In this document: piece by piece, positions 7,509 to 54,839 of the stretch | Layout: every line of letters begins with the position of its first letter | Numbering within the stretch: the stretch's first letter is position 1 | Assembly: GCA_026390575.1 (NCBI GenBank) | Contig: JAPLFR010000016.1 | Coordinates: 534,737-598,736 of the forward strand | Direction: 5' to 3' | From: Ignavibacteriales bacterium | GTDB taxonomy: Bacteria; Bacteroidota; Ignavibacteria; UBA10030 | Length of the DNA: 64,000 nucleotides | Notes under the pieces: generated by a model | What the model saw: the letters and a program-made list of their open reading frames with translations, nothing else | Database searches by the model: none | What the model was told of the DNA's origin: nothing | Made by a program: the position numbers and the translations under genes

Positions 7509-7605
7509 ATAACAACGAGTCTACTCTTGATGAGACTTGTTCGTTTATGAAAACTTTCCTATTTTATAAATAGGCAATCATCCATTACTAATAACGAAAC
7601 ACACT

Positions 7606-8352: not shown

Positions 8353-8424
8353 TTCTTTTCGATATATAATTTTAGATGAGCAGTAAACTGTTTTTTATTT
8401 AATAATTTTTCTTTTTGAATTGAT

Positions 8425-9399
8425 ATGAAAATACTTGCATTCGCAGAACAAAGAGACAATAAATTTAAAAAGTCGGCATTTGAAGTTATTCGCACAGCTC
8501 GAACAATCGCAGATCAAACAGGCGGAGACGTCATTGCTTTGGTTATCGGCGATCAAGTGCAAGCCATTGCCGGCGAGCTTGGCGGATACGGCGTATCGAA
8601 GGTTCTTATCGTCGAACAATCGAAACTTGGAAAATATTCTTCCACCGCATACGCCAAAATCATTGCGGAGGCGGCAAAAAAAGAACAGGCAGATATCATT
8701 TTTCTTTCTGCAACAGCAATGGGCAAGGATGCAGCGGCGCGTATTGCCGTGAAACTTGATGCCGGCCTTGCTTCAGATTGCACAGCTTTAAAAGTTGATG
8801 GCGGCAATATTATCGCAACACGTCCCGTGTATGCGGGCAAAGCGCTGACCGAAATAAAAATCAATTCGGCTGTTAAGGTTTTTACGCTTCGTCCTAATGT
8901 CTTTCCCGCCGGAGCAAGCACCGGTGCCGCGGCAACTGTTGAGGTCATGGATATTCCTCTTGCCGAATCAGATTTCGCATCGCTTGTCATTGAAACGATG
9001 CAAGCATCCGGCAAAATAGATGTTGCAGAAGCGGATATTATCGTTACCGGCGGACGCGGAATGAAGGGTCCGGAGAATTTTAAAATGATTGAAGACCTCG
9101 CTCATGTTCTTGGTGGAGCTGTCGGAGCTTCGCGCGCCGTTGTTGATGCCGGCTGGCGTCCGCACAATGAGCAAGTTGGACAAACCGGAAAGACTGTTTC
9201 ACCATCACTCTACATTGCTGTGGCAGTCTCGGGAGCTATTCAACATCTTGCCGGTATGTCATCCTCAAAGTATATCGTTGCCGTCAACAAAGACAAAGAC
9301 GCACCTATTTTTCAGATTGCTGATTATGGTATCGTGGCCGATGCATTTGTAATCGTTCCTGCAATCATGCTCGAAGCGAAAAAGCTTCTCGGGAAATAA
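8425..9399 (+). CDS. etfA: Electron transfer flavoprotein alpha subunit
   Basis: 324 aa with C-terminal FAD-binding region (VAVSGAIQHLAGMSSSKYIVAVNKDKDAPIFQIADYGIVADAF). Confidence 0.85.
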   Translation: MKILAFAEQRDNKFKKSAFEVIRTARTIADQTGGDVIALVIGDQVQAIAGELGGYGVSKVLIVEQSKLGKYSSTAYAKIIAEAAKKEQADIIFLSATAMGKDAAARIAVKLDAGLASDCTALKVDGGNIIATRPVYAGKALTEIKINSAVKVFTLRPNVFPAGASTGAAATVEVMDIPLAESDFASLVIETMQASGKIDVAEADIIVTGGRGMKGPENFKMIEDLAHVLGGAVGASRAVVDAGWRPHNEQVGQTGKTVSPSLYIAVAVSGAIQHLAGMSSSKYIVAVNKDKDAPIFQIADYGIVADAFVIVPAIMLEAKKLLGK

Positions 9400-13310: not shown

Positions 13311-13739
13311 TTATTCATCGATTTGTGCGACAGTACCACGGTTTATTCGCGCCTGTACTAACTTACCAATCCAAGCACTCATCGAAGTATAAGAAAATAC
13401 CACAACTGCCCAAAAGTAATAGAAACCAATGGTTTTAGGTATAGAATAATGACTCACTGCCATTGTTCCGTAATACAATAATGCTGAAATACCCGGTTCA
13501 AATATTGCTTTCCCTTTTGAGCGATAGCCGATATAGAATGCAATGACTATAGTTTCAAGGGTGGCAATTAATCGGACTATAGTGGGGGTGTTAATCAGGA
13601 CGTTTAAAATATTAATATTTATATAGACCAGCACAACGCTGAAAATAATGCCGGGTAATAAAAGAACGACAACCATAAAACAATACCCAATTCCTACCCA
13701 CCTCCAATCAATATGAATTTTCTTATCCGTTCTGAGCAT
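13311..13739 (-). CDS. Small polytopic membrane protein (4 predicted TM), unknown function
   Basis: 142 aa of strongly hydrophobic segments. Last gene of a minus-strand run. Confidence 0.5.
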   Translation of the reverse strand: MLRTDKKIHIDWRWVGIGYCFMVVVLLLPGIIFSVVLVYININILNVLINTPTIVRLIATLETIVIAFYIGYRSKGKAIFEPGISALLYYGTMAVSHYSIPKTIGFYYFWAVVVFSYTSMSAWIGKLVQARINRGTVAQIDE

Positions 13740-13772
13740 TTTCTTTCTCCTTACTACAAAAACGATATACTC

Positions 13773-14567
13773 TTACTCTTTAAACTTACCGAAATATTGC
13801 CAATCACTCATTTTTCCATGGTTATCTATTCGCACTTTAACACTGGCATCCGAATAAATCTTTGATTGGCCGGTGAGAATAACAGTACTATCCATACCGG
13901 ATGTTGTATATGTGCCATTTTCAGTCTCTGAAAGTTTAACTGGTAATATATATCCAATAAACGATCCATGACCACCGCCCAATTCATGAGGCAATGCTTT
14001 ATACTGATGCACTTGCCAGGCAGTCGCATTGAGATCATTGATGATATTGTCCTTGTTGGTTTGGATTGCCGTCGAGGCTCTCAATGGGTTATCTATTATT
14101 TTTATTTCTATATACATTTTCAAAAAAGAATAGATTGCCAAGGCAAGAATAAAGGAACCTCCAATTATTGACAATATCGTATATGCTCGAGGAACATTAT
14201 TATTCTTTTCTGTCGTTTTTTCTTCGTATCGTTTCTTCCAACCCAAGAAAAAGAGGGCCGGTGCAATGATAAAAAGAAGAATGCTGATGAGCAAATAAAG
14301 ACGCTGAGAAAAAGGAACAAGATCAAGCGGGCTGCCTGAGAATTCTTTTTCACTATTCTTTATGGTTAAGTTTGATGCTTTATTCCAAGGCGAAGAGGTA
14401 ATGCCGAAATTTCTATCAGATGTTCGATCAGGTAGGAAATAATAATTGAAAAAAAGTGAAAAGAGCACAGCGCCAGTGAGAATGACAAGCATGAATATAA
14501 AATCATTAGAGAAACCCAACGGCTCTTTCTTTTTATCCGGTTCAGGAGTATCAATTTTCTGATTCAT
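13773..14567 (-). CDS. Membrane protein (3 TM plus ~120-aa C-terminal domain), unknown function; distant paralog of the next gene
   Basis: 264 aa. TM segments then a soluble C-terminus. The segment STVILTGQSKIY resembles LTVLTDTQVIVVAQDRY of the 14551..15207 product. Confidence 0.5.
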   Translation of the reverse strand: MNQKIDTPEPDKKKEPLGFSNDFIFMLVILTGAVLFSLFFNYYFLPDRTSDRNFGITSSPWNKASNLTIKNSEKEFSGSPLDLVPFSQRLYLLISILLFIIAPALFFLGWKKRYEEKTTEKNNNVPRAYTILSIIGGSFILALAIYSFLKMYIEIKIIDNPLRASTAIQTNKDNIINDLNATAWQVHQYKALPHELGGGHGSFIGYILPVKLSETENGTYTTSGMDSTVILTGQSKIYSDASVKVRIDNHGKMSDWQYFGKFKE

Positions 14568-15207
14568 GGTTTACTCCTTGCTCTGTGAGAATAAATTTTT
14601 CCTGTATGGTCCCTTTTTTGCCATTGATATTTTCAAAAAGCGGATTTCTTCCTCGTGCGTATCTATCTTGCGCAACGACTATTACTTGAGTATCTGTTAA
14701 AACAGTCAATGTGCATACCATTGAGGTATCCCATGCCTCGTGTAACTGATGGATATTTGATTGCACGGGAGCATGTGGATATGTTTGCTGAAATATTTGA
14801 CCAAGAGTAGTATTCTTTACTTTTCCTTGAGTATGAAAGAGCTCAAGAACTTCGATGAGGTCATTCGGTACTTCAGATAAAATCAAGTCACGGCCAATAA
14901 TACTTCTAATCGAAAGAAGCGTTTCTTTCTGCCAATAACTTTGATTTTCCGAGGTGATCCATGTCGTGATGATACAACCCAAGACGACAATACTGCAAAT
15001 CACAGCGATAATGCGTGTCCGTACTGGGAAAGGATACCTTAATGTATAGATCATAAGTGCTGCAATGTAAAGCATTGCAATTATTCCGGCAGTATCCATC
15101 GAGGGCCACAATTCTGGCGAATTGCCCGGAAGAAAGAAACCAATGGTTACAATGGTGATGCCGACAAGAAGCCATTTTACTATCATATTACCCCCTATTC
15201 TGAACAC
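14551..15207 (-). CDS. Membrane protein (3 TM plus C-terminal soluble domain), unknown function
   Basis: 218 aa. Overlaps the downstream gene by 17 nt. Similar architecture to the 13773..14567 product. Confidence 0.5.
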   Translation of the reverse strand: MFRIGGNMIVKWLLVGITIVTIGFFLPGNSPELWPSMDTAGIIAMLYIAALMIYTLRYPFPVRTRIIAVICSIVVLGCIITTWITSENQSYWQKETLLSIRSIIGRDLILSEVPNDLIEVLELFHTQGKVKNTTLGQIFQQTYPHAPVQSNIHQLHEAWDTSMVCTLTVLTDTQVIVVAQDRYARGRNPLFENINGKKGTIQEKFILTEQGVNHESEN

Positions 15208-28631: not shown

Positions 28632-29000
28632 CGCACAGTCTTACGATAAGTGAAAAAAGTTTTATAGGAAGAATATACAAGAAATCTTCACCTCGTTCAA
28701 CCGTTGCAAAATGATGCCTATCTATCAGACATGGGTGTCACGGTCCCCCGTAAAATACACGAGGCAGGCATACCGTGACACTAAAATGAATTGTTATCAA
28801 TAACTCCTCGTCACGAAGTGGTTCGTGACGCCCCAGTGTAAAATACCTTGCATTTAGATTACCGATTAAATAGATTAACCGGAGAAAAGCGGGCGGGCTG
28901 TTGGGGATTGATGGGCGGGTAATAAAAGCAGGGCAGGTTCCTTTCAGTGCCAACCACAAGCCGTTGTAGAATATTGCCGCCTAACCAAACGATTTCTACT

Positions 29001-29031
29001 ATCCCGCATGAAAACAGTGGGAGTTTCCAAC
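29001..29031 (+). promoter_or_regulatory. Island motif copy 1 (ATCCCG-N4-AAAACAGTGGGAGTT), 20 bp upstream of 29051 start
   Basis: ctATCCCGcatgAAAACAGTGGGAGTTtccaac. TCCCG/TGGGA dyad, allowing a G-U pair. Confidence 0.5.
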
Positions 29032-29050
29032 TATTAGACACCATTTATTT

Positions 29051-29818
29051 ATGAGAGAAGAACATTACGACATTTCCGGTATAAACTTTAACTTCTCAAT
29101 AATGAGGATTAATACCCTAAGCGTTCTTTGGATTTGTGCGTTAGTTGTGGCAATCAGAATGAATTATGAAGCGACATTCCTGACCTGGGAGCAGGGGCCA
29201 CAAATGATAGGATTTAGTTTTGTTCATTCCTATGGGGCATTATTGATATTAGCGTCGCTCATTCTAATCATAATAACTTTTATCCAGATGGTTAGAATAA
29301 TAATCAAGTTATTCAAGAAATCGAAGATTGAACGTCAATACTTTATTTGTTTCATAATTTCGATCTTCTTTATTTGCTTAAACTTTATTCCTTATAGTGT
29401 TGCACAGACATTTATGATTCATTCCCAAGGATTACCAAAAGATACTCTACGATTCTTTACAAACGCAGCACATGATGGCGATCTAGGAATAATGAAATTG
29501 ATGATAAAGAAAAGGTATCAGCCAGACAGCACCGTCTTTTCGACTTGTTTGTTTAATGCTTGTTTCAGTGGACATAGAGATGTTATAGAGTATTCCTTGG
29601 AACATGGTGCCAACATCAATTATCAAACCGATGATTTTAAGACGACACCATTAATGATTGCTGCCGAGAAAGACGAATCAGAAACAATTGAATTTTTATT
29701 GGCGCATGGGGCTAATCCTAGGTTAAGAGACGAATTTGAAGAAGAAAGAACAGCGTTGGATTGGGCTGTATATTATAAAAATAAAAAAAGTATTTCAATA
29801 TTGAGCAAGTATAAATAG
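29051..29818 (+). CDS. Membrane-anchored ankyrin-repeat protein
   Basis: 255 aa. N-terminal TM segments. C-terminal ANK repeats (TPLMIAAEKDESETIEFLLAHGANP...). Very AT-rich codon usage. Confidence 0.65.
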   Translation: MREEHYDISGINFNFSIMRINTLSVLWICALVVAIRMNYEATFLTWEQGPQMIGFSFVHSYGALLILASLILIIITFIQMVRIIIKLFKKSKIERQYFICFIISIFFICLNFIPYSVAQTFMIHSQGLPKDTLRFFTNAAHDGDLGIMKLMIKKRYQPDSTVFSTCLFNACFSGHRDVIEYSLEHGANINYQTDDFKTTPLMIAAEKDESETIEFLLAHGANPRLRDEFEEERTALDWAVYYKNKKSISILSKYK

Positions 29819-29883
29819 TGTTTCTCTACACCATCATCCTCTTCACGAGAGTTGTTATGATCAAACATATAAAAGGATAACTC

Positions 29884-30384
29884 ATGACTATTACCAGAGT
29901 ATTTTTTACCGGTGTCATTATTTTGTGTTTCATTACAATTCGAAATGATGCAAGACAATCACGACCCGAAATACTCACCATCGATCCAATAAAACCCTCT
30001 AATCTTGTTTTAACTGGAGATTCCGCCTTCTTTAGCAGGGATGCAAAAAAAGTTAAAAAACACAGAAAGATGAAAGATACATCAGATGCTCCGCCCTATG
30101 AAGGAATTCCTCTTTCACAGCAACCGACATTCTTGAAAATGATTATTCCTAAATGTCCCAAGGAAGCAATCATTAAATCAATGACTGGTACAACCAAAGT
30201 AAAAGTTTGGGTTGATGAGCATGGTAATCCAAGGCTTGCAGTAATAATGGAATCATCAGACAAGATTTTCAATGAGTGTTCATTGATATCGGCAATGCAG
30301 TGGACATTTAAACCAGCAATGAACGACAATAAACCAACTTCATCATGGATGTATATTCCATTTCGTTTTCGGAACTGTAAATAA
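29884..30384 (+). CDS. TonB C-terminal domain protein (N-terminal TM anchor)
   Basis: 166 aa. KCPKEAIIKSMTGTTKVKVWVDEHGNP...AMQWTFKPA matches the TonB_C fold signature. Confidence 0.55.
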   Translation: MTITRVFFTGVIILCFITIRNDARQSRPEILTIDPIKPSNLVLTGDSAFFSRDAKKVKKHRKMKDTSDAPPYEGIPLSQQPTFLKMIIPKCPKEAIIKSMTGTTKVKVWVDEHGNPRLAVIMESSDKIFNECSLISAMQWTFKPAMNDNKPTSSWMYIPFRFRNCK

Positions 30385-30415
30385 TTCATTGGCGTCTAGC
30401 CTGCGGCTCCCCGCA

Positions 30416-30446
30416 ATCCCGATAGAAAGCGGCAGGAGTTATCATA
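30416..30446 (+). promoter_or_regulatory. Island motif copy 2, 25 bp upstream of 30471 start
   Basis: caATCCCGatagAAAGCGGCAGGAGTTatcata. Confidence 0.45.
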
Positions 30447-30470
30447 AGTTAGGTTCATAAGAGGAAAAAA

Positions 30471-31163
30471 ATGGAAAGTGATTATGCCGAATGCCGGATC
30501 TGCAAGTACCAGTTCCACAAACCTGACGTTGATGATACTGGCATAAGAATTAAGTGCCCATCTTGCGGAGGACTTGCAAGGAACTATTATGTCTCGCTTA
30601 GTGGTACGGTATATGCGGTTGGTTCGGTAGAAGCTACTCTTACAGTCGCAAGTGAACCTAACCCGGAGATCGAAGCTGTTTTTAAGCTAGATGACAAGTT
30701 CGCCGGAAAAAGTATAATTGAATATTCAAACATTGTCGACGAGAAGCTAATAGATTACTTTAGTGCGCACCCACAAGAACTAAAGACAATGAATCGCAGA
30801 GGTTTTGAAGATCTAGTTGCAGAACTATTCCACGGATTTGGCTACGATGTCGAGCTAACTAAGCAGACTCGTGATGGTGGCAGAGATATCATAGTTGTCA
30901 GAAATTCTGAGGTTAAGGTAAAGTACTTAATCGAATGCAAGAGACCTGACCCCGGGAAAAAAGTTGGTGTGCAGCCAGTTAGAGAACTTTTTGGTGTAAA
31001 AAATGACGAGTTGGCTACAAAAGCAATTCTCGCCACAACAGCATACTTCTCAAGGGATGCAAAATTATTTTATGAAAAGCATGAATGGGAACTCGAATTA
31101 AGAGATTACAATGACTTGATTGAATGGATAAGAATATATCTAAATATGAAAGGCAGAGGATAA
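30471..31163 (+). CDS. Zinc-ribbon + Mrr_cat (PD-(D/E)xK restriction-endonuclease-like) domain protein
   Basis: 230 aa. N-terminal CxxC...CxxC (CRICKY...CPSCGG). C-terminal FEDLVAELFHGFGYDVELTKQTRDGGRDIIVV...YLIECKR...TTAYFSRDAKLF matches the Mrr N-terminal catalytic domain pattern (D...ExK). Confidence 0.65.
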   Translation: MESDYAECRICKYQFHKPDVDDTGIRIKCPSCGGLARNYYVSLSGTVYAVGSVEATLTVASEPNPEIEAVFKLDDKFAGKSIIEYSNIVDEKLIDYFSAHPQELKTMNRRGFEDLVAELFHGFGYDVELTKQTRDGGRDIIVVRNSEVKVKYLIECKRPDPGKKVGVQPVRELFGVKNDELATKAILATTAYFSRDAKLFYEKHEWELELRDYNDLIEWIRIYLNMKGRG

Positions 31164-31226
31164 GCCTAGCCGCCATCCATTAAGTAGTGTATAATCGGAG
31201 AATAAACAAAGGAGCGTCTCATAAAG

Positions 31227-31715
31227 GTGAAATCAATATTTTTTATTTTAATTCCGATTTTTATTTCTTGTTCCCACTCAACCACTCCGCCTGAAATGAG
31301 AGACTTTAATTTTAAGTTCAGTTATGGGGTTAACGAACGGAATATTATCAACACATTTCAAAATACCTATACAAAGGATTTAATTTCCGATGGAGATACT
31401 ACGGTTCCATTTACACTATCCGCCAATGACTTGAAGCAAATTTTGGATAAAATGAATGAAATCGGTTTTTTTGAATATCCTGATACTTTTATTGTACCTA
31501 CAGAGGGCCCCGTTACAATAGTGAGACCTTTTTCGATATACAGATTTGATGTATGCGCTAAGGTGTCGAAAAAACACCTTTACTGGAAAGATGAAATAAA
31601 GAATGAAAATGCTCAGGCGACAAAACTGCGAGAACTTAATGCACTCATCATAGGAATTATACAATCGAAACCGGAATATTCACAGCTGCCTCTCGCAAGC
31701 GGTGGTTACTTATAA
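31227..31715 (+). CDS. Lipoprotein, unknown function
   Basis: GTG start. Lipobox LIPIFISCS. 162 aa. Confidence 0.45.
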   Translation: MKSIFFILIPIFISCSHSTTPPEMRDFNFKFSYGVNERNIINTFQNTYTKDLISDGDTTVPFTLSANDLKQILDKMNEIGFFEYPDTFIVPTEGPVTIVRPFSIYRFDVCAKVSKKHLYWKDEIKNENAQATKLRELNALIIGIIQSKPEYSQLPLASGGYL

Positions 31716-31732
31716 ACAATATGTGGCCCACA

Positions 31733-31763
31733 ATCCCACCGGAAAACAGTGGGAGTTGCACCC
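31733..31763 (+). promoter_or_regulatory. Island motif copy 3, 46 bp upstream of 31809 start
   Basis: caATCCCAccggAAAACAGTGGGAGTTgcaccc. Perfect TCCCA/TGGGA dyad. Confidence 0.5.
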
Positions 31764-31808
31764 TGCGAGACGGCGAAGGCATACACGTAACAATAAAATG
31801 ATATTATC

Positions 31809-32366
31809 ATGACTTCTCCAATGCACTTCACACGTACACATCTTGAACAAGCCTTAACAGCGGAACAATTGCGAGGAATTCTCATCATTAGAATTGCTCT
31901 GATGCTTGGAATCTCGTTCTATTACTTCGTCGTTTTTCTCTTGTACTCCATGTTCAATCCTGAAGGCTTTAGCAAACAAGATGTGTCGTTGATGCATGTG
32001 CTTTCCACAGCACATGCTGTGTTTACGCTGGCAGCTGCTACAACAGCGTTCTATCTCTCAAGCCTTCAACTGCGTCCCGAACGTCTCACCGGGCAGTCAG
32101 ACATTCAAACACCGGAAGATGCGGCTTTGTATGCCGTGGGATTATACCGGACAAGTTCAATAATACTCATGGCGCCAATTGAAGGAGCATCCTTCTTCGG
32201 AGCCGTGATTTGTATGATAGGTGTTCAGAACGGGACAATCGAATTTTATCCGATGTATTGGCTGAATGCTGCATCTGCTGTTTTATTAGTCTTGGTAGGA
32301 ATCATGACATTCCCGACACGCAAGAGGGTTCTCGAAACGTTGGAGTCTGCATTCGTGCAACGGTGA
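31809..32366 (+). CDS. Membrane protein, unknown function
   Basis: 185 aa with 4-5 hydrophobic segments. Confidence 0.45.
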   Translation: MTSPMHFTRTHLEQALTAEQLRGILIIRIALMLGISFYYFVVFLLYSMFNPEGFSKQDVSLMHVLSTAHAVFTLAAATTAFYLSSLQLRPERLTGQSDIQTPEDAALYAVGLYRTSSIILMAPIEGASFFGAVICMIGVQNGTIEFYPMYWLNAASAVLLVLVGIMTFPTRKRVLETLESAFVQR

Positions 32367-32404
32367 TTCTTATGAGGCTGCGGGCTAGATAGCAATTCTC
32401 CGCT

Positions 32405-32435
32405 ATCCTGTTTTTAAACAGCGGTACTGTGAGCG
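32405..32435 (+). promoter_or_regulatory. Island motif copy 4 (weaker), upstream of isochorismatase-family gene
   Basis: ctATCCTGttttTAAACAGCGGTACTGtgagcg. Confidence 0.3.
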
Positions 32436-32465
32436 GCATTTTAACTATTGGTCAATTGGAGAAAA

Positions 32466-33002
32466 ATGAAAGTATTATTAATCATAGATATGCAGGTGGG
32501 ATCTTTTAAGCCTGAAACGCCGCGCTATGATGCCGATGGTGTTGTGGAAAGAATAAATTCATTATCAGATTATTTCCGGCATAATGGAGACAAAGTAATT
32601 TTTATCCAACACGATGGAACGAAGGAAAATTCATATATTCCCGGTACATCTGATTGGAATATTTTACCAACGCTCATTCAGCGTCCGGATGATATTATCC
32701 TGGGTAAAACGGCTAACGATTCATTCTATAATACAGATTTAGAAACCATATTGAAAAAAAATGATATAACTGATTTATTTATTACTGGCTGTGCGACAGA
32801 TTTTTGTGTCAACGCGACTGTGCATTCTGCTTTAATCAAGGATTATAATATTTTCGTGGTCAAAGATTGTCATACAACAGCAAATCGTTCTTATTTGAGC
32901 GCTGAAAAAGTGATTCAATATCATAATTGGCTCTGGGAGAATATGACTCCCACGAATGGACAAATAAAATTAGTTTTATCAAAGGATTTAATAAAAGTTT
33001 AA
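32466..33002 (+). CDS. Isochorismatase-family cysteine hydrolase
   Basis: Start taken at MKVLLIIDMQ. Catalytic Cys region ITGCATDFCVNATV. Confidence 0.7.
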   Translation: MKVLLIIDMQVGSFKPETPRYDADGVVERINSLSDYFRHNGDKVIFIQHDGTKENSYIPGTSDWNILPTLIQRPDDIILGKTANDSFYNTDLETILKKNDITDLFITGCATDFCVNATVHSALIKDYNIFVVKDCHTTANRSYLSAEKVIQYHNWLWENMTPTNGQIKLVLSKDLIKV

Positions 33003-33041
33003 AATCCCATTCCACCCGATGTTTTTGCAGAAGGAAGATAA

Positions 33042-33476
33042 ATGGCAAAAAGACTTCCGATAACAGATGTTCCTTGTAATGGCTGTACCCTGTGTTGCCA
33101 GGGCGACGCCGTGAGGCTTGAGAAAGATGACACTGCGATGCAGTATGAAACCGAACCTCATCCATTCATACCGGGCGCATTCATGCTTGCTCACAAATCA
33201 AATGGTGAATGTATATACTTGGACAAAAATGGCTGCAGAATCCATGAGCACGCACCCTCTTTGTGCCGGCTCGCCGATTGCCGCAGTCTCGCTCTACGGA
33301 TAGACTATGAAACAGCAAGGCGGCTTCATTTTATGAACAGATTGGATATTCGAGTATGGGATCAAGGACATAAACTTCTCGAAAAAATGGTTGTACAAAA
33401 CAATAATGATCATTCATGTGCGGCTATTGCCGATATGAGAAAACGCCTAAGCAGGCACTCTCCACTATCCCGTTAA
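33042..33476 (+). CDS. YkgJ-family cysteine-cluster protein (CxxCxxCC, UPF0153)
   Basis: CNGCTLCCQGD N-terminal motif. Additional Cys at ECIYLDKNGCRIHEH...CRLADC. Confidence 0.6.
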   Translation: MAKRLPITDVPCNGCTLCCQGDAVRLEKDDTAMQYETEPHPFIPGAFMLAHKSNGECIYLDKNGCRIHEHAPSLCRLADCRSLALRIDYETARRLHFMNRLDIRVWDQGHKLLEKMVVQNNNDHSCAAIADMRKRLSRHSPLSR

Positions 33477-33525
33477 AAACATCGGGACACATAAAACGCG
33501 GAGAGCAGTGGGAATTGCAACTCCC
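33467..33525 (+). promoter_or_regulatory. Island motif copy 5 (extended/duplicated form), 71 bp upstream of 33596 start
   Basis: ctATCCCGttaaAAACATCGGGACAC...aaaacgcggagagCAGTGGGAATTGCAACTCCC. Confidence 0.45.
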
Positions 33526-33595
33526 GTCGGTCAAGCGGCTTTTATAAAAGTTCAGTAGAATCTTCAAGAACTATAAGGGGAAATAAGGTAAGAAT

Positions 33596-34084
33596 ATGGA
33601 AACAATTATTAATTCAAAGAATGAAATGTTCCGTCATAGTATCGCAACCTTAGCGTATCGTGCGGCAAAAACGCTCCGTAATGCCCCTGAAAATTTTGCC
33701 ACATTTCGGATCGATGCTAAATCCAGAACATCTGTTGAAATTCTAACGCACATGGGCGACCTCATAGTTTGGGCGCTTTCGATGGCAAAGGGAAAAGGCA
33801 TCTGGCATGAATCAACTCCACAGGATTGGGAGAGTGAAGCTGCTCGTTTCTTTGACTCTATAAGACAATTTGATACATACCTGGCAAGCGGTTCTACGAT
33901 TGCATGCCCATTGGAAAAGTTATTTCAAGGACCAATCGCTGACGCGCTGACGCACGTTGGCCAGCTTGCTATGCTGCGGCGTCTGGCAGGAGCTCCAATC
34001 ATAGGCGAGAACTATTTCGTAGCAGATATCATAGTTGGACGTGTCGGCCCTGAGCAATCTCAACCTCGAAAGACGTTTGGTTAA
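33596..34084 (+). CDS. DinB/YfiT-like (DinB_2) family protein
   Basis: 162 aa. The HMGDLIVWAL...H...H pattern is typical of the DinB four-helix bundle metal site. Confidence 0.5.
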   Translation: METIINSKNEMFRHSIATLAYRAAKTLRNAPENFATFRIDAKSRTSVEILTHMGDLIVWALSMAKGKGIWHESTPQDWESEAARFFDSIRQFDTYLASGSTIACPLEKLFQGPIADALTHVGQLAMLRRLAGAPIIGENYFVADIIVGRVGPEQSQPRKTFG

Positions 34085-34148
34085 AGTATTACAGAACTCC
34101 AGACTGTAAGGCGGTCATGAGTCAACCCTTCCAGAAAGAGAGGAATAA

Positions 34149-34511
34149 ATGAATGAATTATTTTCGTACTGTGGCCTCGTTTGCAGCACCTGCCCTATTT
34201 ACTTGGCAACGAGAGAAGTCAACAAAGAAGAGCAGATAAAAAAGAGAACCGAGATCGCCAGAATTTGTAAAGAACACTATAGAATGAATTACGAGCTGTC
34301 AGACATCACTGATTGCGACGGCTGCCACACGGAAGGCGGAAGATTGTTTTCAGGATGTACGACGTGCACTATAAGAGAATGCGCAAAACAAAAGGCAATA
34401 GAAAACTGCGCGTATTGTTCAGAATATATCTGCCAGAAACTTGAATTATTTTTCGTCCAGGATCCATCTGCAAAGATACGTTTGGACGAGATAAGAAATA
34501 GAATTTCTTAA
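34149..34511 (+). CDS. Cysteine-rich DUF3795-like protein
   Basis: 120 aa. CGLVCSTCPIY, CDGCH, CTTCTIRECA, CAYCSEYICQ motifs. Confidence 0.5.
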   Translation: MNELFSYCGLVCSTCPIYLATREVNKEEQIKKRTEIARICKEHYRMNYELSDITDCDGCHTEGGRLFSGCTTCTIRECAKQKAIENCAYCSEYICQKLELFFVQDPSAKIRLDEIRNRIS

Positions 34512-34790
34512 AATAGGCATCAAATGAACAGCCAGTTTTTCAAGTTCGGCTTATCCACTCACATGCATCGGGCAAAACACAATTTCTCAATGTTCAAATT
34601 ATGAATCAGTGTATAGATGAAAATATTGATTTATGAAGCGCAATATTTGTAAATTCATCATGTCATTTCTGATATTCATCTTAGAGTGAAATAAGAAGAA
34701 AGAAAAAGATATGGTGATTGTCGCACCGGGAAAATATTTAAAAGAATACTGTTTCCATTATTTCAAGCGTTGCTATCTATGTCATGAAAG

Positions 34791-36587
34791 ATGGTTGATA
34801 GAATGACGGCAGATATAATTATATCAATGATTGCAGCGGTTGGATTTATCCTGGCGTCGCTCTATGTTATCATCGCACGCAGGGTGAGACCATCGTGGAA
34901 AGCCGGTGTTTTAATTTTACTCTCGTGCGCCGATGTCACTCTGGCACATGCTTTACAAGGTATCAATTTTGATTTTGCAACAAAAGTATTCTGGTACAAG
35001 ATGTGCATTTTGGGTTTTACCATTACTCCTACGGCATTCTTCTGTCTTACTCTGCGTTACGGCGGATGGGGGAACATACTCACAACCCGTACGCTTGTTA
35101 TGCTTAGTGTTTTCCCTGCCTTGAGCGCAGGGCTTATTCTCACGAACGAAATACATGGCTTAGTCTGGAATCCTGCGAGTATAGCACGTATCGTAAACAT
35201 AACAACCTTTGTTTCTATTACCGACGCGCGTATCTGGTATTGGTTATTTGTTGCTTACTCGTATTTACTCATGGGCGTCGGCTGCTTTTTTCTTATCCGA
35301 TTATTGATATTGTCGCATGGAATCTATGGATGGCAAGCCGGTGCAGTAGTATTTGCTGCAATACTTGCATTGCTTGGTGTTCTGTTGGATTTTCTCGTTA
35401 TGAGCCCTCTCCCGCCATTCGCAGCAACTGCATTGGGAATGGCTGCAGGATCTATTACAGTAGCTTTTCTTTTACCCTCTCTCCGGCGTCGCGATCTGAT
35501 ATATATTTCTCGCAGAGCAATCATTGACAGTATTAGTGATAGTATCATGGTCGTGGATGGAGAAAATCGTATTGTGGAAATGAATCCTTCAGCAGAAAAG
35601 TTGATAAGCGAACTTGCCTCGCAAGCAATCGGCAAACATATAGATCAATTTTTGCCGGAATTGAGTTCACATTGGATTCATAATGCCAATATCAGCAGTG
35701 AGGTGACACTGAAGCGTGGAGAGACGACATATATCTTTGACCTGCACGTTTCGATCATTCATGATTGGCAAGGGCACATCGCAGGTCGATCGATTGACCT
35801 GCATGATATTTCAGACCGGAAACGTGCAGAAGAACAAGTCCGTACATTGAATGAAGAGTTGGAATTCCGTGTCATCGAACGCACAAAACAGTTGGAAGCA
35901 GCAAACAAGGAACTTGAAGCTTTTGCATATTCGGTTGCGCACGATTTGCGCGCACCACTAAGAGCAATCGATGGCTTTGCGCATATTCTGCTGGAAGATT
36001 ATGAAAATTTACTGGGCAAGGAAGGGAAACGTTTGTGTACTATTATTTACGGCGAGTCACAGCAAATGGGCAGATTGATCGACGATCTTCTTGCTTTCTC
36101 TCATATCAGCCATACTGAAATACAAATGACCTTGATCGATATGGAGGATCTTGTAAAATCCATTTTCTACAAATTATCAACCCCGAAAAGTCGAGAACGT
36201 ATTGATTTCCAGGTAGGTCCTTTACCGAAAACAATGAGCGACATAACGCTCATCAGCGAGGTGTGGCTCAACCTCATCTCCAACGCTATAAAATTTTCCT
36301 CTAAGCGGGAGCGTGCGATCATTGAAGTGAGTTATCTCCAAGAAGGAGATAACATCATATACTTGGTTCGGGATAATGGAGCCGGATTTGATATGCGATA
36401 TGCAGGCAAGCTCTTTACCATTTTCTGGCGCATGCACAGTGATAAAGAATTTGAAGGCACCGGCATTGGTTTGGCTATTGTTCAGCGTCTCATTCGTCGG
36501 CATGGCGGAGAAGTATGGGCCGAGAGTGAAGTGGATAAAGGCGCAACTTTTTATTTTACTCTTCCACAGAAAAGAAGTCGATCGTGA
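34791..36587 (+). CDS. Sensor histidine kinase (polytopic N-terminal membrane domain, PAS, HisKA, HATPase_c)
   Basis: 598 aa. 6-7 TM N-terminus. H-box FAYSVAHDLRAPLR. N/G boxes (NAIKFS...DNGAGFD...GTGIGLAIV). Confidence 0.8.
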   Translation: MVDRMTADIIISMIAAVGFILASLYVIIARRVRPSWKAGVLILLSCADVTLAHALQGINFDFATKVFWYKMCILGFTITPTAFFCLTLRYGGWGNILTTRTLVMLSVFPALSAGLILTNEIHGLVWNPASIARIVNITTFVSITDARIWYWLFVAYSYLLMGVGCFFLIRLLILSHGIYGWQAGAVVFAAILALLGVLLDFLVMSPLPPFAATALGMAAGSITVAFLLPSLRRRDLIYISRRAIIDSISDSIMVVDGENRIVEMNPSAEKLISELASQAIGKHIDQFLPELSSHWIHNANISSEVTLKRGETTYIFDLHVSIIHDWQGHIAGRSIDLHDISDRKRAEEQVRTLNEELEFRVIERTKQLEAANKELEAFAYSVAHDLRAPLRAIDGFAHILLEDYENLLGKEGKRLCTIIYGESQQMGRLIDDLLAFSHISHTEIQMTLIDMEDLVKSIFYKLSTPKSRERIDFQVGPLPKTMSDITLISEVWLNLISNAIKFSSKRERAIIEVSYLQEGDNIIYLVRDNGAGFDMRYAGKLFTIFWRMHSDKEFEGTGIGLAIVQRLIRRHGGEVWAESEVDKGATFYFTLPQKRSRS

Positions 36588-36773
36588 ACTGGCACACCAT
36601 GAATAATTATCGAGGTAAGAAAGAGAATTCCTTAACATAGTTTTTACATGAACGAATGATGCTATGCAACACTCCCGCCTAGCATAGTACCGTATTGCAG
36701 GTCCATGTGCGATGGTATTCTCATTGTAAATCCTCCTTTAGCTCTTCCTGAAAATTAGGTATATTGTATATCC

Positions 36774-41846: not shown

Positions 41847-41918
41847 TTCTCTGGCGAAACCTTCGCAAGGTTTACCTGTACAATCTATGAGACCATGCGA
41901 AGGTTATCGAGGCGACCA

Positions 41919-42905
41919 ATGTCCGAACCCATTCTAACAAAATCACGCAACATCTACGAGCAGCAGGCGCATAATCGCCGCATGACCTGGTGTATTGTGG
42001 GATGCATCATTGTGCTTTTTGCGGTTATCGGGTTGGGAGTTGATTACTTTTATCTAGGAATATTTAACACTCGTAATGGAATTCCGATTGTGACAATCCT
42101 TACTTTGGTATTGAGTGTTATATTTGCATTATGGAGTCTTCAGAGTGGCGCTTCGGCGGTACTGTTATCAGCTCAAGCAGTTCCGGCAGACCCAACAAAC
42201 GCAGATCAACGCCAGCTTCTCAATGTTGTTCAAGAAATATCTCTTGCTTCCGGATTACCGGCACCAAAGGTATACGTTATTCCCGATGATGATCCAAATG
42301 CATTTGCGACGGGAAGGGATCCGCAGCACAGTTACATTGCCATTACCCACGGACTTCTCACCACTCTTGAGCGCGACGAATTGCAGGGCGTGATCGCGCA
42401 TGAAATGAGTCATATTCGATATTACGACATCCGTTTGATGACGCTCGTCGCAGCATGTGTCGGTGCCATTGTTTTATTGGCAGATATTTCTGTCCGAGGA
42501 ATGCGATTCAGACTTTTTTCAAGCCGTGGTCTACGATCGAAAGGGAAAAATCCTTTAGGAATAATATTTCTTCTTCTCTGGCTTCTTACAGTAATCCTCG
42601 CTCCCATACTTACACAACTCATGGCAATGATGATTTCACGTAAACGCGAATATCTTGCCGATGCTTCCGCTGCCGAGCTCACGCGAAATCCGCTCGCTCT
42701 TGCTAAAGCTCTGCAAAAACTGGAGAATGCATCAGCACCAACTGCTGCTATTAAGCGGGGCATTGCGCATCTGTGTGTCGTAGATCCATTGGGTAAAAAA
42801 GTAAATGAGAAAGAAGGATTTTGGGCTGAACTCTTTGCAACGCATCCTCCAATACAAAAGCGTATTATGCTGTTAAAGTCGATGGCATATCAGTACTCAA
42901 AGTAA
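41919..42905 (+). CDS. M48-family zinc metalloprotease, HtpX-like (copy 1)
   Basis: HEXXH site GVIAHEMSHIRYYD with TM segments before and after. Start set at MSEPILTKS by homology to the paralog N-terminus. The ORF track starts 24 nt earlier. Confidence 0.75.
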   Translation: MSEPILTKSRNIYEQQAHNRRMTWCIVGCIIVLFAVIGLGVDYFYLGIFNTRNGIPIVTILTLVLSVIFALWSLQSGASAVLLSAQAVPADPTNADQRQLLNVVQEISLASGLPAPKVYVIPDDDPNAFATGRDPQHSYIAITHGLLTTLERDELQGVIAHEMSHIRYYDIRLMTLVAACVGAIVLLADISVRGMRFRLFSSRGLRSKGKNPLGIIFLLLWLLTVILAPILTQLMAMMISRKREYLADASAAELTRNPLALAKALQKLENASAPTAAIKRGIAHLCVVDPLGKKVNEKEGFWAELFATHPPIQKRIMLLKSMAYQYSK

Positions 42906-42909
42906 GACC

Positions 42910-44175
42910 ATGTCTGAGCCTATCTTAACTCACGCGCGTAATATTTATGAACAACAAGCGCACAACCGCCGGATGACATGGCTCCTCATTATCATTTTCG
43001 TTCTTCTGATCGCGGTGATCGGAGCGGGATTGGATATATTCTTAACGATCGACACTCCGGTTCGATTCATTATGCTTCCATTTGTTCTTCTGATGGCCGG
43101 CTCTGGCATTTGGAATTTTCAGCAGCGGGCAGCATCAGGATTGTGGGAAGAGTCAAAGAAATTTGCCGATGACGACGGCGAGTTCAAAATAATCGGGTGG
43201 AGTCTATATCTCATAATTTTTACAATGATAGTAATTCTAATATTATTCCTGCTACTGCCGTTTTATGTTATGAATCCTCGTCCAGTTGACCATCTGATCT
43301 CCGGTTTTTTAAAGAATATTTCAGAGATTTCCAAAATCCCTGTTTTGCAATACCTTCCAATTGGAACAACTTTAGCCGTCATTATCGGTATTGTCTCCAT
43401 CCTCACAAGTCTTCGCTGGGGAATGAATTCGGTCCTCTGGTCTGTGCATGCCGAACAACCTGATGAAACCTTTGCGGCTCTGCCGGAGTTATTAAATGTA
43501 GTAAAAGAAATAAGTCTTGCGGCAGGAATTCCTTCTCCCAAAGTGTATATCGTGAAAGATTCAGATCCCAATGCTTTTACCATTGGAACCATCCCGACGG
43601 AGAGCTCGATTGTCGTCACTACTGGATTGATTGCAATGTTGAACCGCGAAGAATTGCAGGGCGTCATCGCACATGAAATGAGCCACATACGTAATTCCGA
43701 TACTCGGTTGCTGACAATCATTACGGTTTTGTTTGGCGCAGTGCTTTTGCTTTCTGAGTGGATGAAGAAGAGTGCTTTTCTCGGAGGATTTGCAGGGAGC
43801 CGCGTGCCCGGTGCCGGATGGATGTTACGCGGTGTCTTGTTTATTGGTTGGCTTCTCACAATTCTCTTTGCTCCTTTGATCGCGCGCATCGTAGCGATGG
43901 CAGTATCACGTCAGCGGGAATATTTGGCAGATGCAGGTGGCGCAGAATTGACGCGCAATCCCAAGGCACTTGCCAATGCTTTAAAGAAAATCGAAAATGC
44001 TGATGCACCTACGATATCTTTTCAAAAAGGTATCGCTCATTTATGTGTCGTTGATCCTTTAGGAAGAAGAATTAATTCGAAAGAAGGATGGTGGGCCGAC
44101 TTATTCGCAACCCACCCGCCGATGAAAAATCGTATTATCCTTTTAAATGCTATGGCCTACGAGATGATGAAGTAA
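42910..44175 (+). CDS. M48-family zinc metalloprotease, HtpX-like (copy 2, tandem paralog)
   Basis: 421 aa. Shared N-terminus MSEPILTHARNIYEQQAHNRRMTW. GVIAHEMSHIRNSD. Extra TM insertion relative to copy 1. Confidence 0.75.
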   Translation: MSEPILTHARNIYEQQAHNRRMTWLLIIIFVLLIAVIGAGLDIFLTIDTPVRFIMLPFVLLMAGSGIWNFQQRAASGLWEESKKFADDDGEFKIIGWSLYLIIFTMIVILILFLLLPFYVMNPRPVDHLISGFLKNISEISKIPVLQYLPIGTTLAVIIGIVSILTSLRWGMNSVLWSVHAEQPDETFAALPELLNVVKEISLAAGIPSPKVYIVKDSDPNAFTIGTIPTESSIVVTTGLIAMLNREELQGVIAHEMSHIRNSDTRLLTIITVLFGAVLLLSEWMKKSAFLGGFAGSRVPGAGWMLRGVLFIGWLLTILFAPLIARIVAMAVSRQREYLADAGGAELTRNPKALANALKKIENADAPTISFQKGIAHLCVVDPLGRRINSKEGWWADLFATHPPMKNRIILLNAMAYEMMK

Positions 44176-54776: not shown

Positions 54777-54839
54777 CTGATAACTGATTGCTGATTACTG
54801 ATTACTTACAACTGATTACTGACTACTGACGACTGATTC
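54777..54839. repeat. Degenerate heptanucleotide tandem array (CTGATTA)x9
   Basis: ctgataa ctgattg ctgatta ctgatta cttacaa ctgatta ctgacta ctgacga ctgattc. It lies between the convergent PAP2 and ychF genes. The aacatc...gatgtt hairpin at 54730-54765 precedes it. Confidence 0.7.

What the first reader, a model, noticed from the sequence alone, without database searches (positions are those of the whole stretch)
29051..34511. AT-rich island of nine small co-directional accessory genes
Between the NlpC/P60 gene and the histidine kinase lies a run of short plus-strand genes with visibly lower GC. It holds a membrane ankyrin-repeat protein, a TonB_C-like protein, a standalone Mrr_cat nuclease with a zinc ribbon, a lipoprotein, a membrane protein, and isochorismatase, YkgJ, DinB_2 and DUF3795 proteins. 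Several genes share the upstream motif. The mix of a nuclease, ankyrin repeats (rare in bacteria, often host-interaction or phage-related) and small stress-type proteins looks like horizontally acquired accessory material. It could be a defence or stress island.
Basis: partly seen in the sequence, partly recalled or inferred. Interest (0 to 1): 0.55.

Follow-up and report, generated by a model that had tools for sequence, protein, structure and literature searches.

The report
Decayed integron gene-cassette array
The "AT-rich island" is most likely the worn-down remnant of an integron-type gene-cassette array in an uncultured Ignavibacteriales bacterium: seven unrelated small genes, separated by copies of one about 61-base recombination-site-like repeat, at a chromosomal spot whose content differs between close relatives; this is a known kind of element, not a new defence system.

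Summary
All nine plus-strand ORFs are real, and eight of the nine labels hold (DinB at fold level only; the lipoprotein call was not tool-tested). The "island" needs redrawing. The last two genes (DinB-fold protein, DUF3795) are conserved with the downstream Gly-transporter and radical-SAM genes in relatives. Only about 28712-33530 (i1-i7) is lineage-specific. Low GC applies to four genes, the four lowest of 66 ORFs in the window; three others are above average, so the block is a mosaic.

The shared upstream motif is part of a repeat of about 61 nt, present five times in register plus a fragment. Each copy after the first starts at or just after a stop codon, and the first four end 4-37 nt before the next start. 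The family consensus begins GCCTAAC and ends GTTAGGC, the integron attC core boxes. The closest relative carries an intact copy (GCTTAAC...GTTAAGC) at the same locus, next to a different gene. The nearest homologues of the ankyrin and Mrr genes lie in canonical attC-flanked cassettes.

Best reading (0.75): a decayed, integrase-less cassette array (CALIN-like). Horizontal acquisition is supported. A defence or stress island is not, beyond one candidate single-gene nuclease. It is a new member of a known kind, of modest interest.

The parts
28712..28826 (.). Junction DNA. Homology to the relatives' NlpC/P60 promoter region ends at about 28712. The stretch holds short hairpins (28735-28781, about 28806-28831).
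   Evidence: Alignment A1. Inverted repeat I9. Two identical Logan contigs end at 28761.
28827..28889 (+). Conserved non-coding block (…CTTGCATTTAGATTACCGATTAAATAGATTAACCG…) at the head of the variable region. Presumed promoter or regulatory region; this is an inference.
   Evidence: The central about 40 nt are 95% identical (37 of 39 positions, counted on A4) to the LarE-ICMT intergenic region of relative L016, while the surrounding non-coding DNA is not alignable (A4). No consensus sigma-70 match was listed here.
28979..29039 (+). Repeat copy el1: GCCTAAC…ATCCCGC-loop-GTGGGAG…ATTAGAC. It ends 11 nt before the i1 ATG.
   Evidence: (nhmmer E 7e-13, a training member).
29051..29818 (+). i1: membrane protein (3 TM-like segments) with C-terminal ankyrin repeats. 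GC 0.346.
   Evidence: Pfam Ank_2 2.7e-22. Hydropathy. Only two full-length homologues, 51% identity; one of them (L033) lies between canonical attC sites.
29884..30384 (+). i2: N-terminally anchored TonB_C-domain protein. GC 0.365. Possibly in the same cassette as i1, since no repeat was detected in the 65-nt gap between them.
   Evidence: Pfam TonB_C 1.6e-13.. nhmmer found no copy in IG2.
30394..30454 (+). Repeat copy el2: GTCTAGC…GTTAGGT. It is the best preserved copy in the window; its R' box is exact and lies 16 nt before the i3 ATG.
   Evidence: (the RNA MFE pairs the two end boxes).
30471..31163 (+). i3: zinc-ribbon + Mrr_cat (PD-(D/E)xK) nuclease. It belongs to a widespread cassette-borne family and is a candidate single-gene defence nuclease (inference).
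   Evidence: Pfam Mrr_cat 8.4e-26. Invariant Cys4 and D/ExK. Homologues lie in attC-flanked cassettes in L026, L027-29, L041 and L043-45; in these and in L031 the R' box lies 15-20 nt upstream of the ATG and the 5'UTR is homologous.
31164..31226 (+). Partial or decayed repeat copy. R''-like GCCTAGC lies directly after the i3 stop, and the 3' end resembles that of el2.
   Evidence: Read from the sequence. Not detected by nhmmer or the CM.
31227..31715 (+). i4: putative lipoprotein with no known domain. GC 0.356.
   Evidence: N-terminus with ...IFISC read from the output.
31711..31771 (+). Repeat copy el3. It overlaps the i4 stop codon. The inner stem ATCCCAC/GTGGGAG is intact and the end boxes are degenerate (TATAAAC…GCGAGAC).
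31809..32366 (+). i5: membrane protein of an unnamed family. GC 0.459.
   Evidence: 543 cluster representatives. A homologue at 79% aa / 83% nt identity sits in an unrelated context (L040); the DNA homology covers only the ORF plus 21 nt.
32383..32443 (+). Repeat copy el4 (GGCTAGA…), diverged.
   Evidence: Best non-training nhmmer hit in the whole window (E 0.29), and it falls in an island intergenic region. In register in A5.
32448..33002 (+). i6: isochorismatase-family hydrolase. GC 0.342, the lowest in the window.
   Evidence: Pfam 1e-32..
33042..33476 (+). i7: YkgJ/CxxCxxCC cysteine-cluster protein. GC 0.463. Its 3' end runs 32 nt into el5.
   Evidence: Pfam PF03692 2.8e-08. Alignment A3.
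33445..33530 (+). Repeat copy el5 (GCCTAAG…), 86 nt because of a 25-nt insertion in the loop of the inner stem. It abuts the right breakpoint.
   Evidence: Sequence similarity to the region upstream of i8 in relatives starts just after it (read output).
33596..34084 (+). i8: DinB/YfiT-fold protein. NOT part of the variable block; it belongs to the conserved right flank.
   Evidence: At least 7956 homologues. Syntenic with DUF3795, GlyT and rSAM in L035-L039 and L046-L048. Fold.
34149..34511 (+). i9: DUF3795 protein. Conserved right flank, not part of the variable block.
   Evidence: 72-87% identical and in the same position in L016, L017, L019, L020, L035, L046 and L047.

Best explanation
The segment at about 28.7-33.5 kb is a decayed integron-type gene-cassette array with no integrase nearby, the class that IntegronFinder calls CALIN. 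It sits at a chromosomal hotspot upstream of a conserved block: DinB-fold gene, DUF3795 gene, (histidine kinase), Gly-transporter gene, radical-SAM gene.

Anatomy (shown). Seven unrelated, mostly promoterless-looking ORFs are arranged in five to seven units. Each of the five clear units ends in a copy of one repeat of about 61 nt. The layout of the repeat is: inverse-core-like box (consensus GCCTAAC), 15 nt, a 6-7 bp stem-loop (ATCCCRC / GTGGGAG), about 9 nt, then a core-like box (consensus GTTAGRC).

Mechanism (inferred from the known integron mechanism). Cassettes were inserted one at a time by an integron integrase, which recombines folded single-stranded attC sites at the G|TT of the core box. 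They would be transcribed from the conserved region upstream of the array.

Current state (shown). The copies in the window have lost most pairing between the end boxes, and none keeps both the AAC and the GTT triplets. The array is therefore probably frozen.

Gene functions (inferred). The cargo is a random sample of the environmental cassette pool. The zinc-ribbon-Mrr_cat nuclease is the only plausible defence gene, as a streamlined single-gene nuclease.
For: 1. Architecture.
- Five in-register copies share 28-38 of 61 positions, against about 16 expected by chance.
- Copies 2-5 start between 32 nt before and 16 nt after the stop codon of the upstream gene. Copies 1-4 end 4-37 nt before the next start codon; el5 ends 65 nt before i8.
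- The motif occurs nowhere else in the 64 kb.

2. Consensus. The family consensus starts GCCTAAC and ends GTTAGGC, which are the canonical R''/R' boxes. The named two-stem structure is 72% paired, against 31-44% for slid controls, and the inner stem is 90% paired.

3. Intact copy in the closest relative.
- L046 is about 90% identical in DNA over i8-DUF3795.
- At L046 54-117 it carries GCTTAAC…ATCCCGC-loop-GCGGGAC…GTTAAGC.
- Both boxes match the consensus exactly and are 7/7 complementary.
- The window-derived models find this copy: CM 35.7 bits, E 2.8e-7; nhmmer E 2e-6.
- Both stems form in the single-stranded DNA MFE.
- The copy lies upstream of a different gene (a lactonase) at the same locus.

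4. Cassette descent of the cargo.
- The i3 homologues in L026, L027/28/29, L041 and L043-45 lie in attC-flanked cassettes.
- An R' box (GTTAGGT, GTTAGGC, ATTGGGC, GTTATGC, GTTAGCC) lies 15-20 nt upstream of the ATG in the window and in every one of these loci, and also in L031. The 5'UTR is homologous.
- L043 and L044/45 show the same cassette in two contexts that diverge exactly at G|TTAGCC.
- The only close homologue of i1 (L033) lies between canonical attCs.
- i5 recurs at 83% nt identity in an unrelated context.

5. Synteny. i1-i7 are absent from both flanks in all relatives, and the content of the hotspot differs in each relative.

6. Composition. GC is mosaic gene by gene.

7. Other support.
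- Relative L010 has a low-GC array with attC-like sites, including GCCTAGC…TTTAGGC with the same geometry.
- Complete integrons are already reported in Ignavibacteriae (PMC9024848).
Against: - The window's own copies are poor attC sites. A generic scan (R''/R' each with at most 1 mismatch, ends paired) passes only el2, and the same scan gives 29 hits across the window, so on its own it is not significant.
- RNA and DNA folds of the copies have weak z-scores, and the bottom strands do not pair the end boxes.
- No copy keeps both AAC and GTT.
- The covariation counts are no better than shuffles.
- The geometry differs from textbook attC: 15 nt and 9 nt of unpaired spacer, against about 5 nt.
- The window-derived CM does not find the canonical attCs in L026, L027 or L033.
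- No tyrosine-recombinase signature was found in the window, though the test was a crude regex.
- No repeat was detected between i1 and i2 or between i6 and i7.
- IntegronFinder's own attC model could not be run.
Confidence: 0.75

Rival explanations
1. An ordinary variable chromosomal region (a 'flexible islet') built by non-integron routes such as illegitimate or homologous recombination at a rearrangement breakpoint. On this view the 61-nt repeats are a lineage-specific intergenic repeat (REP-, terminator- or operator-like) whose ends resemble attC boxes by chance.
For: - The window copies fold weakly and fail generic attC criteria.
- There is no integrase in the window.
- The left flank is rearranged relative to all relatives: esterase and GroES are missing, and a LarE-side block is joined to the NlpC promoter.
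- There is no significant covariation.
Against: - Chance does not explain the exact, mutually complementary RYYYAAC/GTTRRRY ends of the intact L046 copy.
- It does not explain the R' box at a conserved offset upstream of the Mrr gene in the window and in bona fide cassettes.
- It does not explain why the repeat is confined to the variable block: no copy elsewhere in 64 kb, and none in about 300 kb of related loci apart from L046.
Confidence: 0.15
2. One reading: a functional defence or stress island whose genes act together (nuclease, ankyrin, TonB_C and small stress proteins).
For: - The Mrr_cat nuclease has an intact PD-(D/E)xK motif.
- There are domain-level PADLOC hits.
- Its Mrr_cat module is fused to TIR, MerR and other domains in homologues.
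- Cassette-borne Mrr_cat fusions can defend against phage (Epona; 10.1101/2024.07.02.601686).
Against: - No PADLOC system is complete, and the hits cover single domains only.
- None of the neighbours co-occurs with the Mrr gene in eight other loci.
- i1 is almost an orphan.
- GC mosaicism and the repeat boundaries point to independent acquisition of each gene.
Confidence: 0.05
3. A native, vertically inherited operon of housekeeping or stress genes that happens to be AT-rich.
For: - i8 and i9 are conserved and syntenic.
- i5, i7 and i8 have host-like GC.
- i5 has a 79% homologue in another genome.
Against: - i1-i7 are absent from this position in every relative, including one at about 90% nt identity.
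- The i5 homologue sits in a different context.
- i1 has no homologue above 51% identity.
Confidence: 0.03

Closest known systems
[quoted passage not shown]
   Same: - Co-oriented small unrelated ORFs, each followed by a repeat of about 60 nt with RYYYAAC/GTTRRRY-type ends.
- Repeats are similar to one another within the array.
- Cassette content differs between close relatives at one locus.
- The cargo genes recur in canonical cassettes elsewhere.
- There is no integrase nearby.
   Different: - Most window copies have lost end-box pairing and one of the AAC/GTT triplets.
- The spacers between the outer and inner stems are longer and asymmetric (15 and 9 nt).
- Predicted hairpins are weak.
- Not verified with the IntegronFinder attC covariance model.
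Cassette-borne streamlined anti-phage genes of Vibrio superintegrons, e.g. Epona (Mrr_cat fused to a holin-like domain; Darracq et al., bioRxiv 10.1101/2024.07.02.601686)
   Same: A single small protein with an Mrr_cat effector domain fused to a short N-terminal module, carried as an integron cassette.
   Different: The N-terminal module here is a Cys4 zinc ribbon, not a transmembrane or holin domain. It comes from a different phylum, and no phenotype has been tested.
Type IV restriction enzyme Mrr, and the PADLOC candidate PDC-S02
   Same: A C-terminal Mrr_cat PD-(D/E)xK domain with conserved catalytic residues.
   Different: It lacks the Mrr N-terminal winged-helix domain. The PADLOC hits cover only profile positions 191-308 of 334. 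No full-length equivalent was found on plasmids.
tRNA-linked genomic islands with a tyrosine integrase
   Same: Lineage-specific, compositionally deviant DNA at a synteny break. Relatives L009 and L010 do have an integrase or a tRNA near the NlpC-GroES locus.
   Different: The window has no tRNA, no integrase and no flanking tRNA-derived direct repeat. The internal repeats separate single genes rather than bracketing the whole island.

Membership tests
Integron cassette array / CALIN | At least two co-oriented attC-type sites within a few kb, each following one or a few ORFs | tested here: met
   Five in-register copies at 28979, 30394, 31711, 32383 and 33445, spaced 545-1415 bp apart and all on the + strand like the ORFs.
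Integron cassette array / CALIN | attC end boxes: R'' = RYYYAAC and R' = GTTRRRY, complementary to each other | tested here: inconclusive
   The family consensus is GCCTAAC…GTTAGGC. The intact copy in relative L046 is exact and 7/7 complementary. In the window, el2 (GTCTAGC/GTTAGGT) and el1 (GCCTAAC/ATTAGAC) each have one mismatch overall, and el3-el5 are degenerate.
Integron cassette array / CALIN | An imperfect palindrome that folds as single-stranded DNA into R-box and L-box stems | tested here: inconclusive
   The L046 copy folds with both stems. The window copies keep mainly the inner stem (90% paired), with 58-67% pairing for the outer stem. z-scores are weak and there is no significant covariation.
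Integron cassette array / CALIN | Recognition by the IntegronFinder/Infernal attC covariance model | not testable with these tools
   That model is not available here. My own pattern scan passed only el2, against a background of 29 hits per window.
Integron cassette array / CALIN | Cargo genes behave as mobile cassettes: the same gene occurs in other arrays, with the boundary at G|TT | tested here: met
   i3 family: L026, L027-29, L041 and L043-45, with the R' box at a conserved offset. The L043 and L044/45 contexts diverge at G|TTAGCC. The i1 homologue lies between canonical attCs in L033.
Complete integron | intI integrase gene and attI site next to the first cassette | tested here: not met
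   No tyrosine-recombinase motif in six-frame translations of the window (regex). The called genes within 10 kb on either side have no Phage_integrase hit. The left neighbour is NlpC/P60. The rest of the genome was not searchable.
Known anti-phage defence system (PADLOC-DB v2) | Full set of system proteins matched over most of their profiles | tested here: not met
   Only partial single-domain hits: PDC-S02, mREase_IV and ZorD for Mrr_cat, and PDC-M72A for ANK.
Mrr-type type IV restriction enzyme | N-terminal Mrr_N winged-helix DNA-binding domain plus C-terminal Mrr_cat | tested here: not met
   Mrr_cat is present (8.4e-26). The N-terminus is a Cys4 zinc ribbon with no Mrr_N hit.
DinB/YfiT superfamily (gene i8, flank) | Four-helix bundle of DinB topology with a conserved His-containing metal site | tested here: met
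   Model pLDDT 90.7, four long helices. The top Foldseek PDB hits are DinB/YfiT and mycothiol S-transferase (probability about 1). H52, D116 and H120 are invariant. There is no Pfam DinB_2 sequence hit.
tRNA-integrated genomic island | tRNA or tmRNA target, integrase, and flanking direct repeats | tested here: not met
   No tRNA in the window, no integrase, and no repeat bracketing the block.

The most novel reading that the evidence does not exclude
The 61-64-nt sites are not fossils but a functional, minimal and structurally non-canonical class of attC. They have a 7-bp R box, long asymmetric unpaired spacers and a 6-7-bp inner stem. An Ignavibacteriota integron integrase encoded elsewhere in the genome would use them, making this a live chromosomal cassette hotspot that turns over between populations about 90% identical in DNA. 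The zinc-ribbon-Mrr_cat cassette would then be a new, widespread single-protein anti-phage nuclease.
Probability: 0.12. Interest if true: 0.6.

Novelty: new member of a known kind. Interest (0 to 1): 0.36.

Why it matters
Integrons are best known from Proteobacteria. Arrays in the Bacteroidota/Chlorobi/Ignavibacteriota group are barely described.

This locus gives a worked example of how such an array looks after decay: repeats that still align to one another and to an intact copy in a sister population, but no longer fold. Standard attC finders may miss arrays of this kind.

It also flags a zinc-ribbon-Mrr_cat protein family: more than 500 database hits share its Mrr_cat module, and dozens of them share the zinc-ribbon architecture. 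The family travels as an integron cassette in several lineages. That makes it a reasonable candidate for the streamlined cassette-borne defence genes now being mined from integrons.

None of this overturns current understanding.

Tried and rejected
- tRNA and Rfam scans of the window, and a permissive Rfam scan of the island: nothing found.
- Folding of the 351-nt leader (28700-29050) and of each intergenic region: no significant structure.
- Generic attC pattern-plus-fold scan: only el2 passes, and the background is high, 29 hits per window. It cannot stand alone.
- Other readings of the motif, judged by inspection of the sequences:
  - dif/Xer site: no ATAA-N6-TTAT arms.
  - Sigma-54 promoter: the GG-GC spacing is wrong.
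  - Genome-wide REP: only island copies in 64 kb, and none in the related loci.
- Two serial att-site insertions bracketing i1-i4 and i5-i7: superseded once five copies were found.
- The window-derived CM and HMM against canonical attCs in L026, L027, L033 and L010: no cross-hits, and only 19.7 bits for the L010 site.
- Apparent family members by eye around the i5 homologue in L040: not supported by the CM (best E 1.8), so dropped.
- Structure prediction of i3: pLDDT 51, so no fold search was attempted.
- PDB sequence searches for i3 and i8: no hits.
- Plasmid database: only the Mrr_cat domain matches (at most 44% identity), with no full-length architecture.
- Regex for tyrosine recombinases in the window: none. 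The test is crude.
- One look-up of NlpC/P60 from the TTG start failed. The ATG start one codon downstream is the one used by the public gene calls.

Full report
**1. What is at the coordinates**

I call them i1 to i9.

Pfam confirms six of the labels:
- i1, ankyrin repeats: Ank_2, 2.7e-22.
- i2, TonB_C: 1.6e-13.
- i3, Mrr_cat: 8.4e-26.
- i6, isochorismatase: 1e-32.
- i7, CxxCxxCC/YkgJ: 2.8e-08.
- i9, DUF3795: 2.6e-15.

- i3 has an N-terminal Cys4 zinc ribbon. C8, C11, C29 and C32 are invariant in 33 homologues, and the PD-(D/E)xK residues are conserved.
- i4 and i5 have no family hit.
- A hydropathy scan gives three TM-like segments in i1, an N-terminal anchor in i2 and three TM-like segments in i5. 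The N-terminus of i4 contains ...IFISC, which I read as a lipobox; no tool tested that.
- i8 has no DinB_2 hit at any threshold. A confident model (pLDDT 90.7) is a four-helix bundle whose best PDB matches are all DinB/YfiT proteins and mycothiol S-transferase (probability about 1, TM 0.55-0.65). The label is therefore right at fold level.

**2. Composition**

The block is 40.0% GC against 43.2% for the window. It is not uniformly AT-rich.
- Among 66 non-overlapping ORFs in the window, i6, i1, i4 and i2 are the four lowest (z -2.8 to -2.1).
- i5, i7 and i8 are above the mean.
- The pattern is a gene-by-gene mosaic.

**3. Organism and synteny**

- Seven Logan contigs are 100% identical to the window.
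- The island proteins are in NCBI as 'MAG: … Ignavibacteriales bacterium'.

*Left side.* Six related MAGs (66-76% identity in NlpC/P60) keep everything to the left of NlpC/P60: the 146-aa gene, Cdd1, M23 peptidase, two response regulators and so on.
- Immediately to its right they carry an esterase and a GroES-like gene, which are not in the window at all.
- DNA homology to their NlpC promoter stops at about 28712 (A1).

*Right side.*
- DUF3795 plus the histidine kinase are conserved in L016, L017, L019 and L020.
- The order i8, DUF3795, Gly-transporter, radical-SAM is conserved in L035 at 83-93% aa identity.
- The order i8, Gly-transporter, radical-SAM is conserved in L036-L039.
- In the closest relative (L046-L048) DNA identity is about 90% from 15 nt upstream of i8 through DUF3795, and 95% over the Gly-transporter gene.
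- By eye, similarity to L036 upstream of i8 begins near 33533 (output).

*Conclusions from synteny.*
- i8 and i9 belong to the conserved flank.
- The lineage-specific segment is about 28712-33530: a non-coding leader plus i1-i7.
- What sits upstream of the i8/DUF3795 block differs in every relative:
  - L016: ICMT and a ThyA-like gene.
  - L035: two tiny ORFs.
  - L036: rhomboid, LysE and DUF6713.
  - L046: a lactonase.
- A block of about 60 nt in the leader (28827-28889) is shared with the L016 intergenic region next to LarE. Its central about 40 nt are 95% identical, while the surrounding non-coding DNA is not alignable (A4).
- The head of the variable region is therefore conserved, and the window genome has additionally been rearranged on the left.

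**4. The repeat**

The 'shared upstream motif' (ACAGTGGGAGTT; only three sites in 64 kb, all in the island) is the core of a longer element. Aligning the three regions showed that the similarity starts at a CGCCTAA box about 35 nt upstream (A3).

Four copies align without gaps over 61 positions. The fourth carries a 25-nt insertion in the loop.
- Coordinates: 28979-29039, 30394-30454, 31711-31771 and 33445-33530.
- Pairwise identity is 28-38 of 61.

A profile of these four has its best additional hit in the whole window in the i5-i6 intergenic region (32383-32443; E 0.29). A fragment (GCCTAGC…) follows the i3 stop.

Position relative to the genes:
- Every copy after the first starts between 32 nt before and 16 nt after a stop codon.
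- The first four end 4-37 nt before the next start codon. el5 ends 65 nt before i8.

The consensus of the aligned family is GCCTAAC…CACTATCCCG…GAAAACAGTGGGAGTT…GTTAGGC (A5). The ends are the canonical integron attC inverse-core and core boxes, and they are reverse complements of each other.

A named two-stem structure (end boxes plus ATCCCRC/GTGGGAG) is 72% paired, against 31-44% for slid controls. The inner stem is 90% paired. Covariation does not exceed the shuffles.

**5. Independent support from other genomes**

a. *Intact copy in the closest relative.* L046 carries a copy at 54-117: GCTTAAC-15 nt-ATCCCGC-loop-GCGGGAC-11 nt-GTTAAGC.
   - Both boxes are exact and 7/7 complementary.
   - The window-derived profile finds it (nhmmer E 2e-6), and so does the covariance model (35.7 bits, E 2.8e-7, all 13 pairs standard).
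   - Both stems form in the single-stranded DNA MFE.
   - It lies upstream of the lactonase gene. The same site family therefore accompanies different cargo at the same locus in a genome about 90% identical.

b. *The zinc-ribbon-Mrr_cat gene is a cassette gene elsewhere.*
   - In L027/L028 it lies between classical GC-rich attCs.
   - In L026 (71% identity) and L041 it is flanked by attC sites.
   - In the window and in L026, L027, L029, L031 and L041, an R' box (GTTAGGT, GTTAGGC, ATTGGGC, ATTGGGC, GTTATGC, GTTATGC) lies 15-18 nt before the ATG, followed by a homologous A-rich 5'UTR. In L043-45 the box is GTTAGCC, 20 nt before the ATG.
   - L043 and L044/45 carry the identical cassette in two arrays whose sequences diverge exactly at G|TTAGCC.

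c. *The ankyrin gene i1.* It has only two full-length homologues, both at 51% identity. One of them, in L033, lies between two strongly folding canonical attCs (ATCTAAC…GTTAGAA and ACATAAC…GTTATGT).

d. *The membrane gene i5.* It recurs at 83% nt identity in an unrelated context (L040), and the homology is limited to the ORF plus 21 nt.

e. *Relative L010.* It has a tRNA followed by a low-GC run of about ten small co-directional genes with attC-like sites. One of them (GCCTAGC…TTTAGGC, 58 nt) has the same box variant and geometry as the window repeats.

f. *Literature.* Complete integrons have been reported in Ignavibacteriae (PMC9024848).

**6. What argues against**

- The window copies themselves are poor attCs. 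Only el2 passes a generic box-plus-fold scan, and that scan gives 29 hits in the window.
- Fold z-scores are weak, and the bottom strands do not pair the end boxes.
- None keeps both AAC and GTT.
- The spacer geometry is unusual.
- The window-derived CM does not reach canonical attCs.
- There is no integrase in the window by a crude motif test, and none within 10 kb either side by precomputed Pfam.

I therefore read the array as decayed and integrase-less (CALIN-like), not as an active integron. I could not run IntegronFinder's model.

**7. Function**

- PADLOC finds no system, only partial domain hits.
- The neighbours of the Mrr gene differ in all other loci, so the genes are not a functional unit.
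- The Mrr_cat module (60-66% identical) is fused to TIR, MerR, DnaA_N or sigma-70 region 4 domains in other proteins.
- Cassette-borne Mrr_cat fusions such as Epona protect Vibrio from phage (10.1101/2024.07.02.601686).
- A single-gene defence role for i3 is therefore plausible but untested.
- The other cargo (membrane-ANK, TonB_C, lipoprotein, membrane protein, isochorismatase-family hydrolase, YkgJ) has no inferable joint role.

**8. Verdict**

- The interpretation 'horizontally acquired accessory DNA' holds for i1-i7. 'Defence or stress island' does not.
- The unifying explanation is a decayed integron-type cassette array at a conserved hotspot (confidence 0.75).
- It is a new member of a known kind, in an under-sampled phylum, and of modest interest.

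Noticed in passing
window 34512-36610: The histidine-kinase gene (HisKA_7TM type) with its 279-nt upstream region is itself variably present. The closest relative L047 goes from DUF3795 almost directly to the Gly-transporter gene, leaving about 2.1 kb absent. L016-L020 have the kinase, but L016 lacks the Gly-transporter.
   Followed up: partly
window 33596-34084: i8 belongs to a very large, highly conserved family: at least 7956 hits, with the top 120 at 60-88% identity and nearly all about 162 aa. No Pfam or NCBIfam model covers it. It has a DinB/YfiT fold with invariant H52, D116 and H120.
   Followed up: partly
window 28761 (inside inverted repeat 28735-28781): Two independent Logan assemblies (ERR15302166, ERR15302213) end a contig at exactly this base, 133 nt upstream of NlpC/P60 and close to the synteny breakpoint. 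This may reflect population-level structural variation or an assembly artefact.
   Followed up: no
L043 about 1990-2016, against L044 and L045: The same zinc-ribbon-Mrr_cat cassette (identical protein) lies in two different array contexts. The sequences are identical from G|TTAGCC onwards and unrelated before it, which is a textbook cassette junction.
   Followed up: partly
L030-L032 (e.g. L031 2267-2452, 4532-4616, 5226-5447, 5811-6000): Another run of small co-directional genes: LysM, abhydrolase, RidA, isochorismatase, DUF3795 and Mrr_cat. Its intergenic regions carry four copies of a motif of about 45 nt, GGCGGAAAAAGTGAAATGACCATAAAgAAaATTGAATGGgTT, two of them preceded by terminator-like hairpins. 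The nature of the motif is unknown.
   Followed up: no
L010 about 8410-8753 and 1-8400; L009 3098-3877: In relatives, the region beyond GroES-esterase-NlpC holds either a tRNA gene followed by a low-GC array (GC 0.29-0.42), which includes an Endonuclease_NS gene and a DUF6709 gene (L010), or a Phage_integrase-family gene (L009). This neighbourhood is therefore a second integration hotspot.
   Followed up: partly
window 13311-15207 (- strand): A second cluster of three low-GC genes (GC 0.37-0.40, z -1.1 to -2.0). Not examined.
   Followed up: no
window 41895-44175: Two adjacent paralogous genes share a 71-nt stretch at 80% identity (42372-42442 and 43645-43715) that encodes an HEMSH-type metalloprotease motif.
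   Followed up: no
window 54777-54838 and 58353-58386: Short tandem CTGATTA/CTGACNA heptamer-like repeats in intergenic DNA.
   Followed up: no
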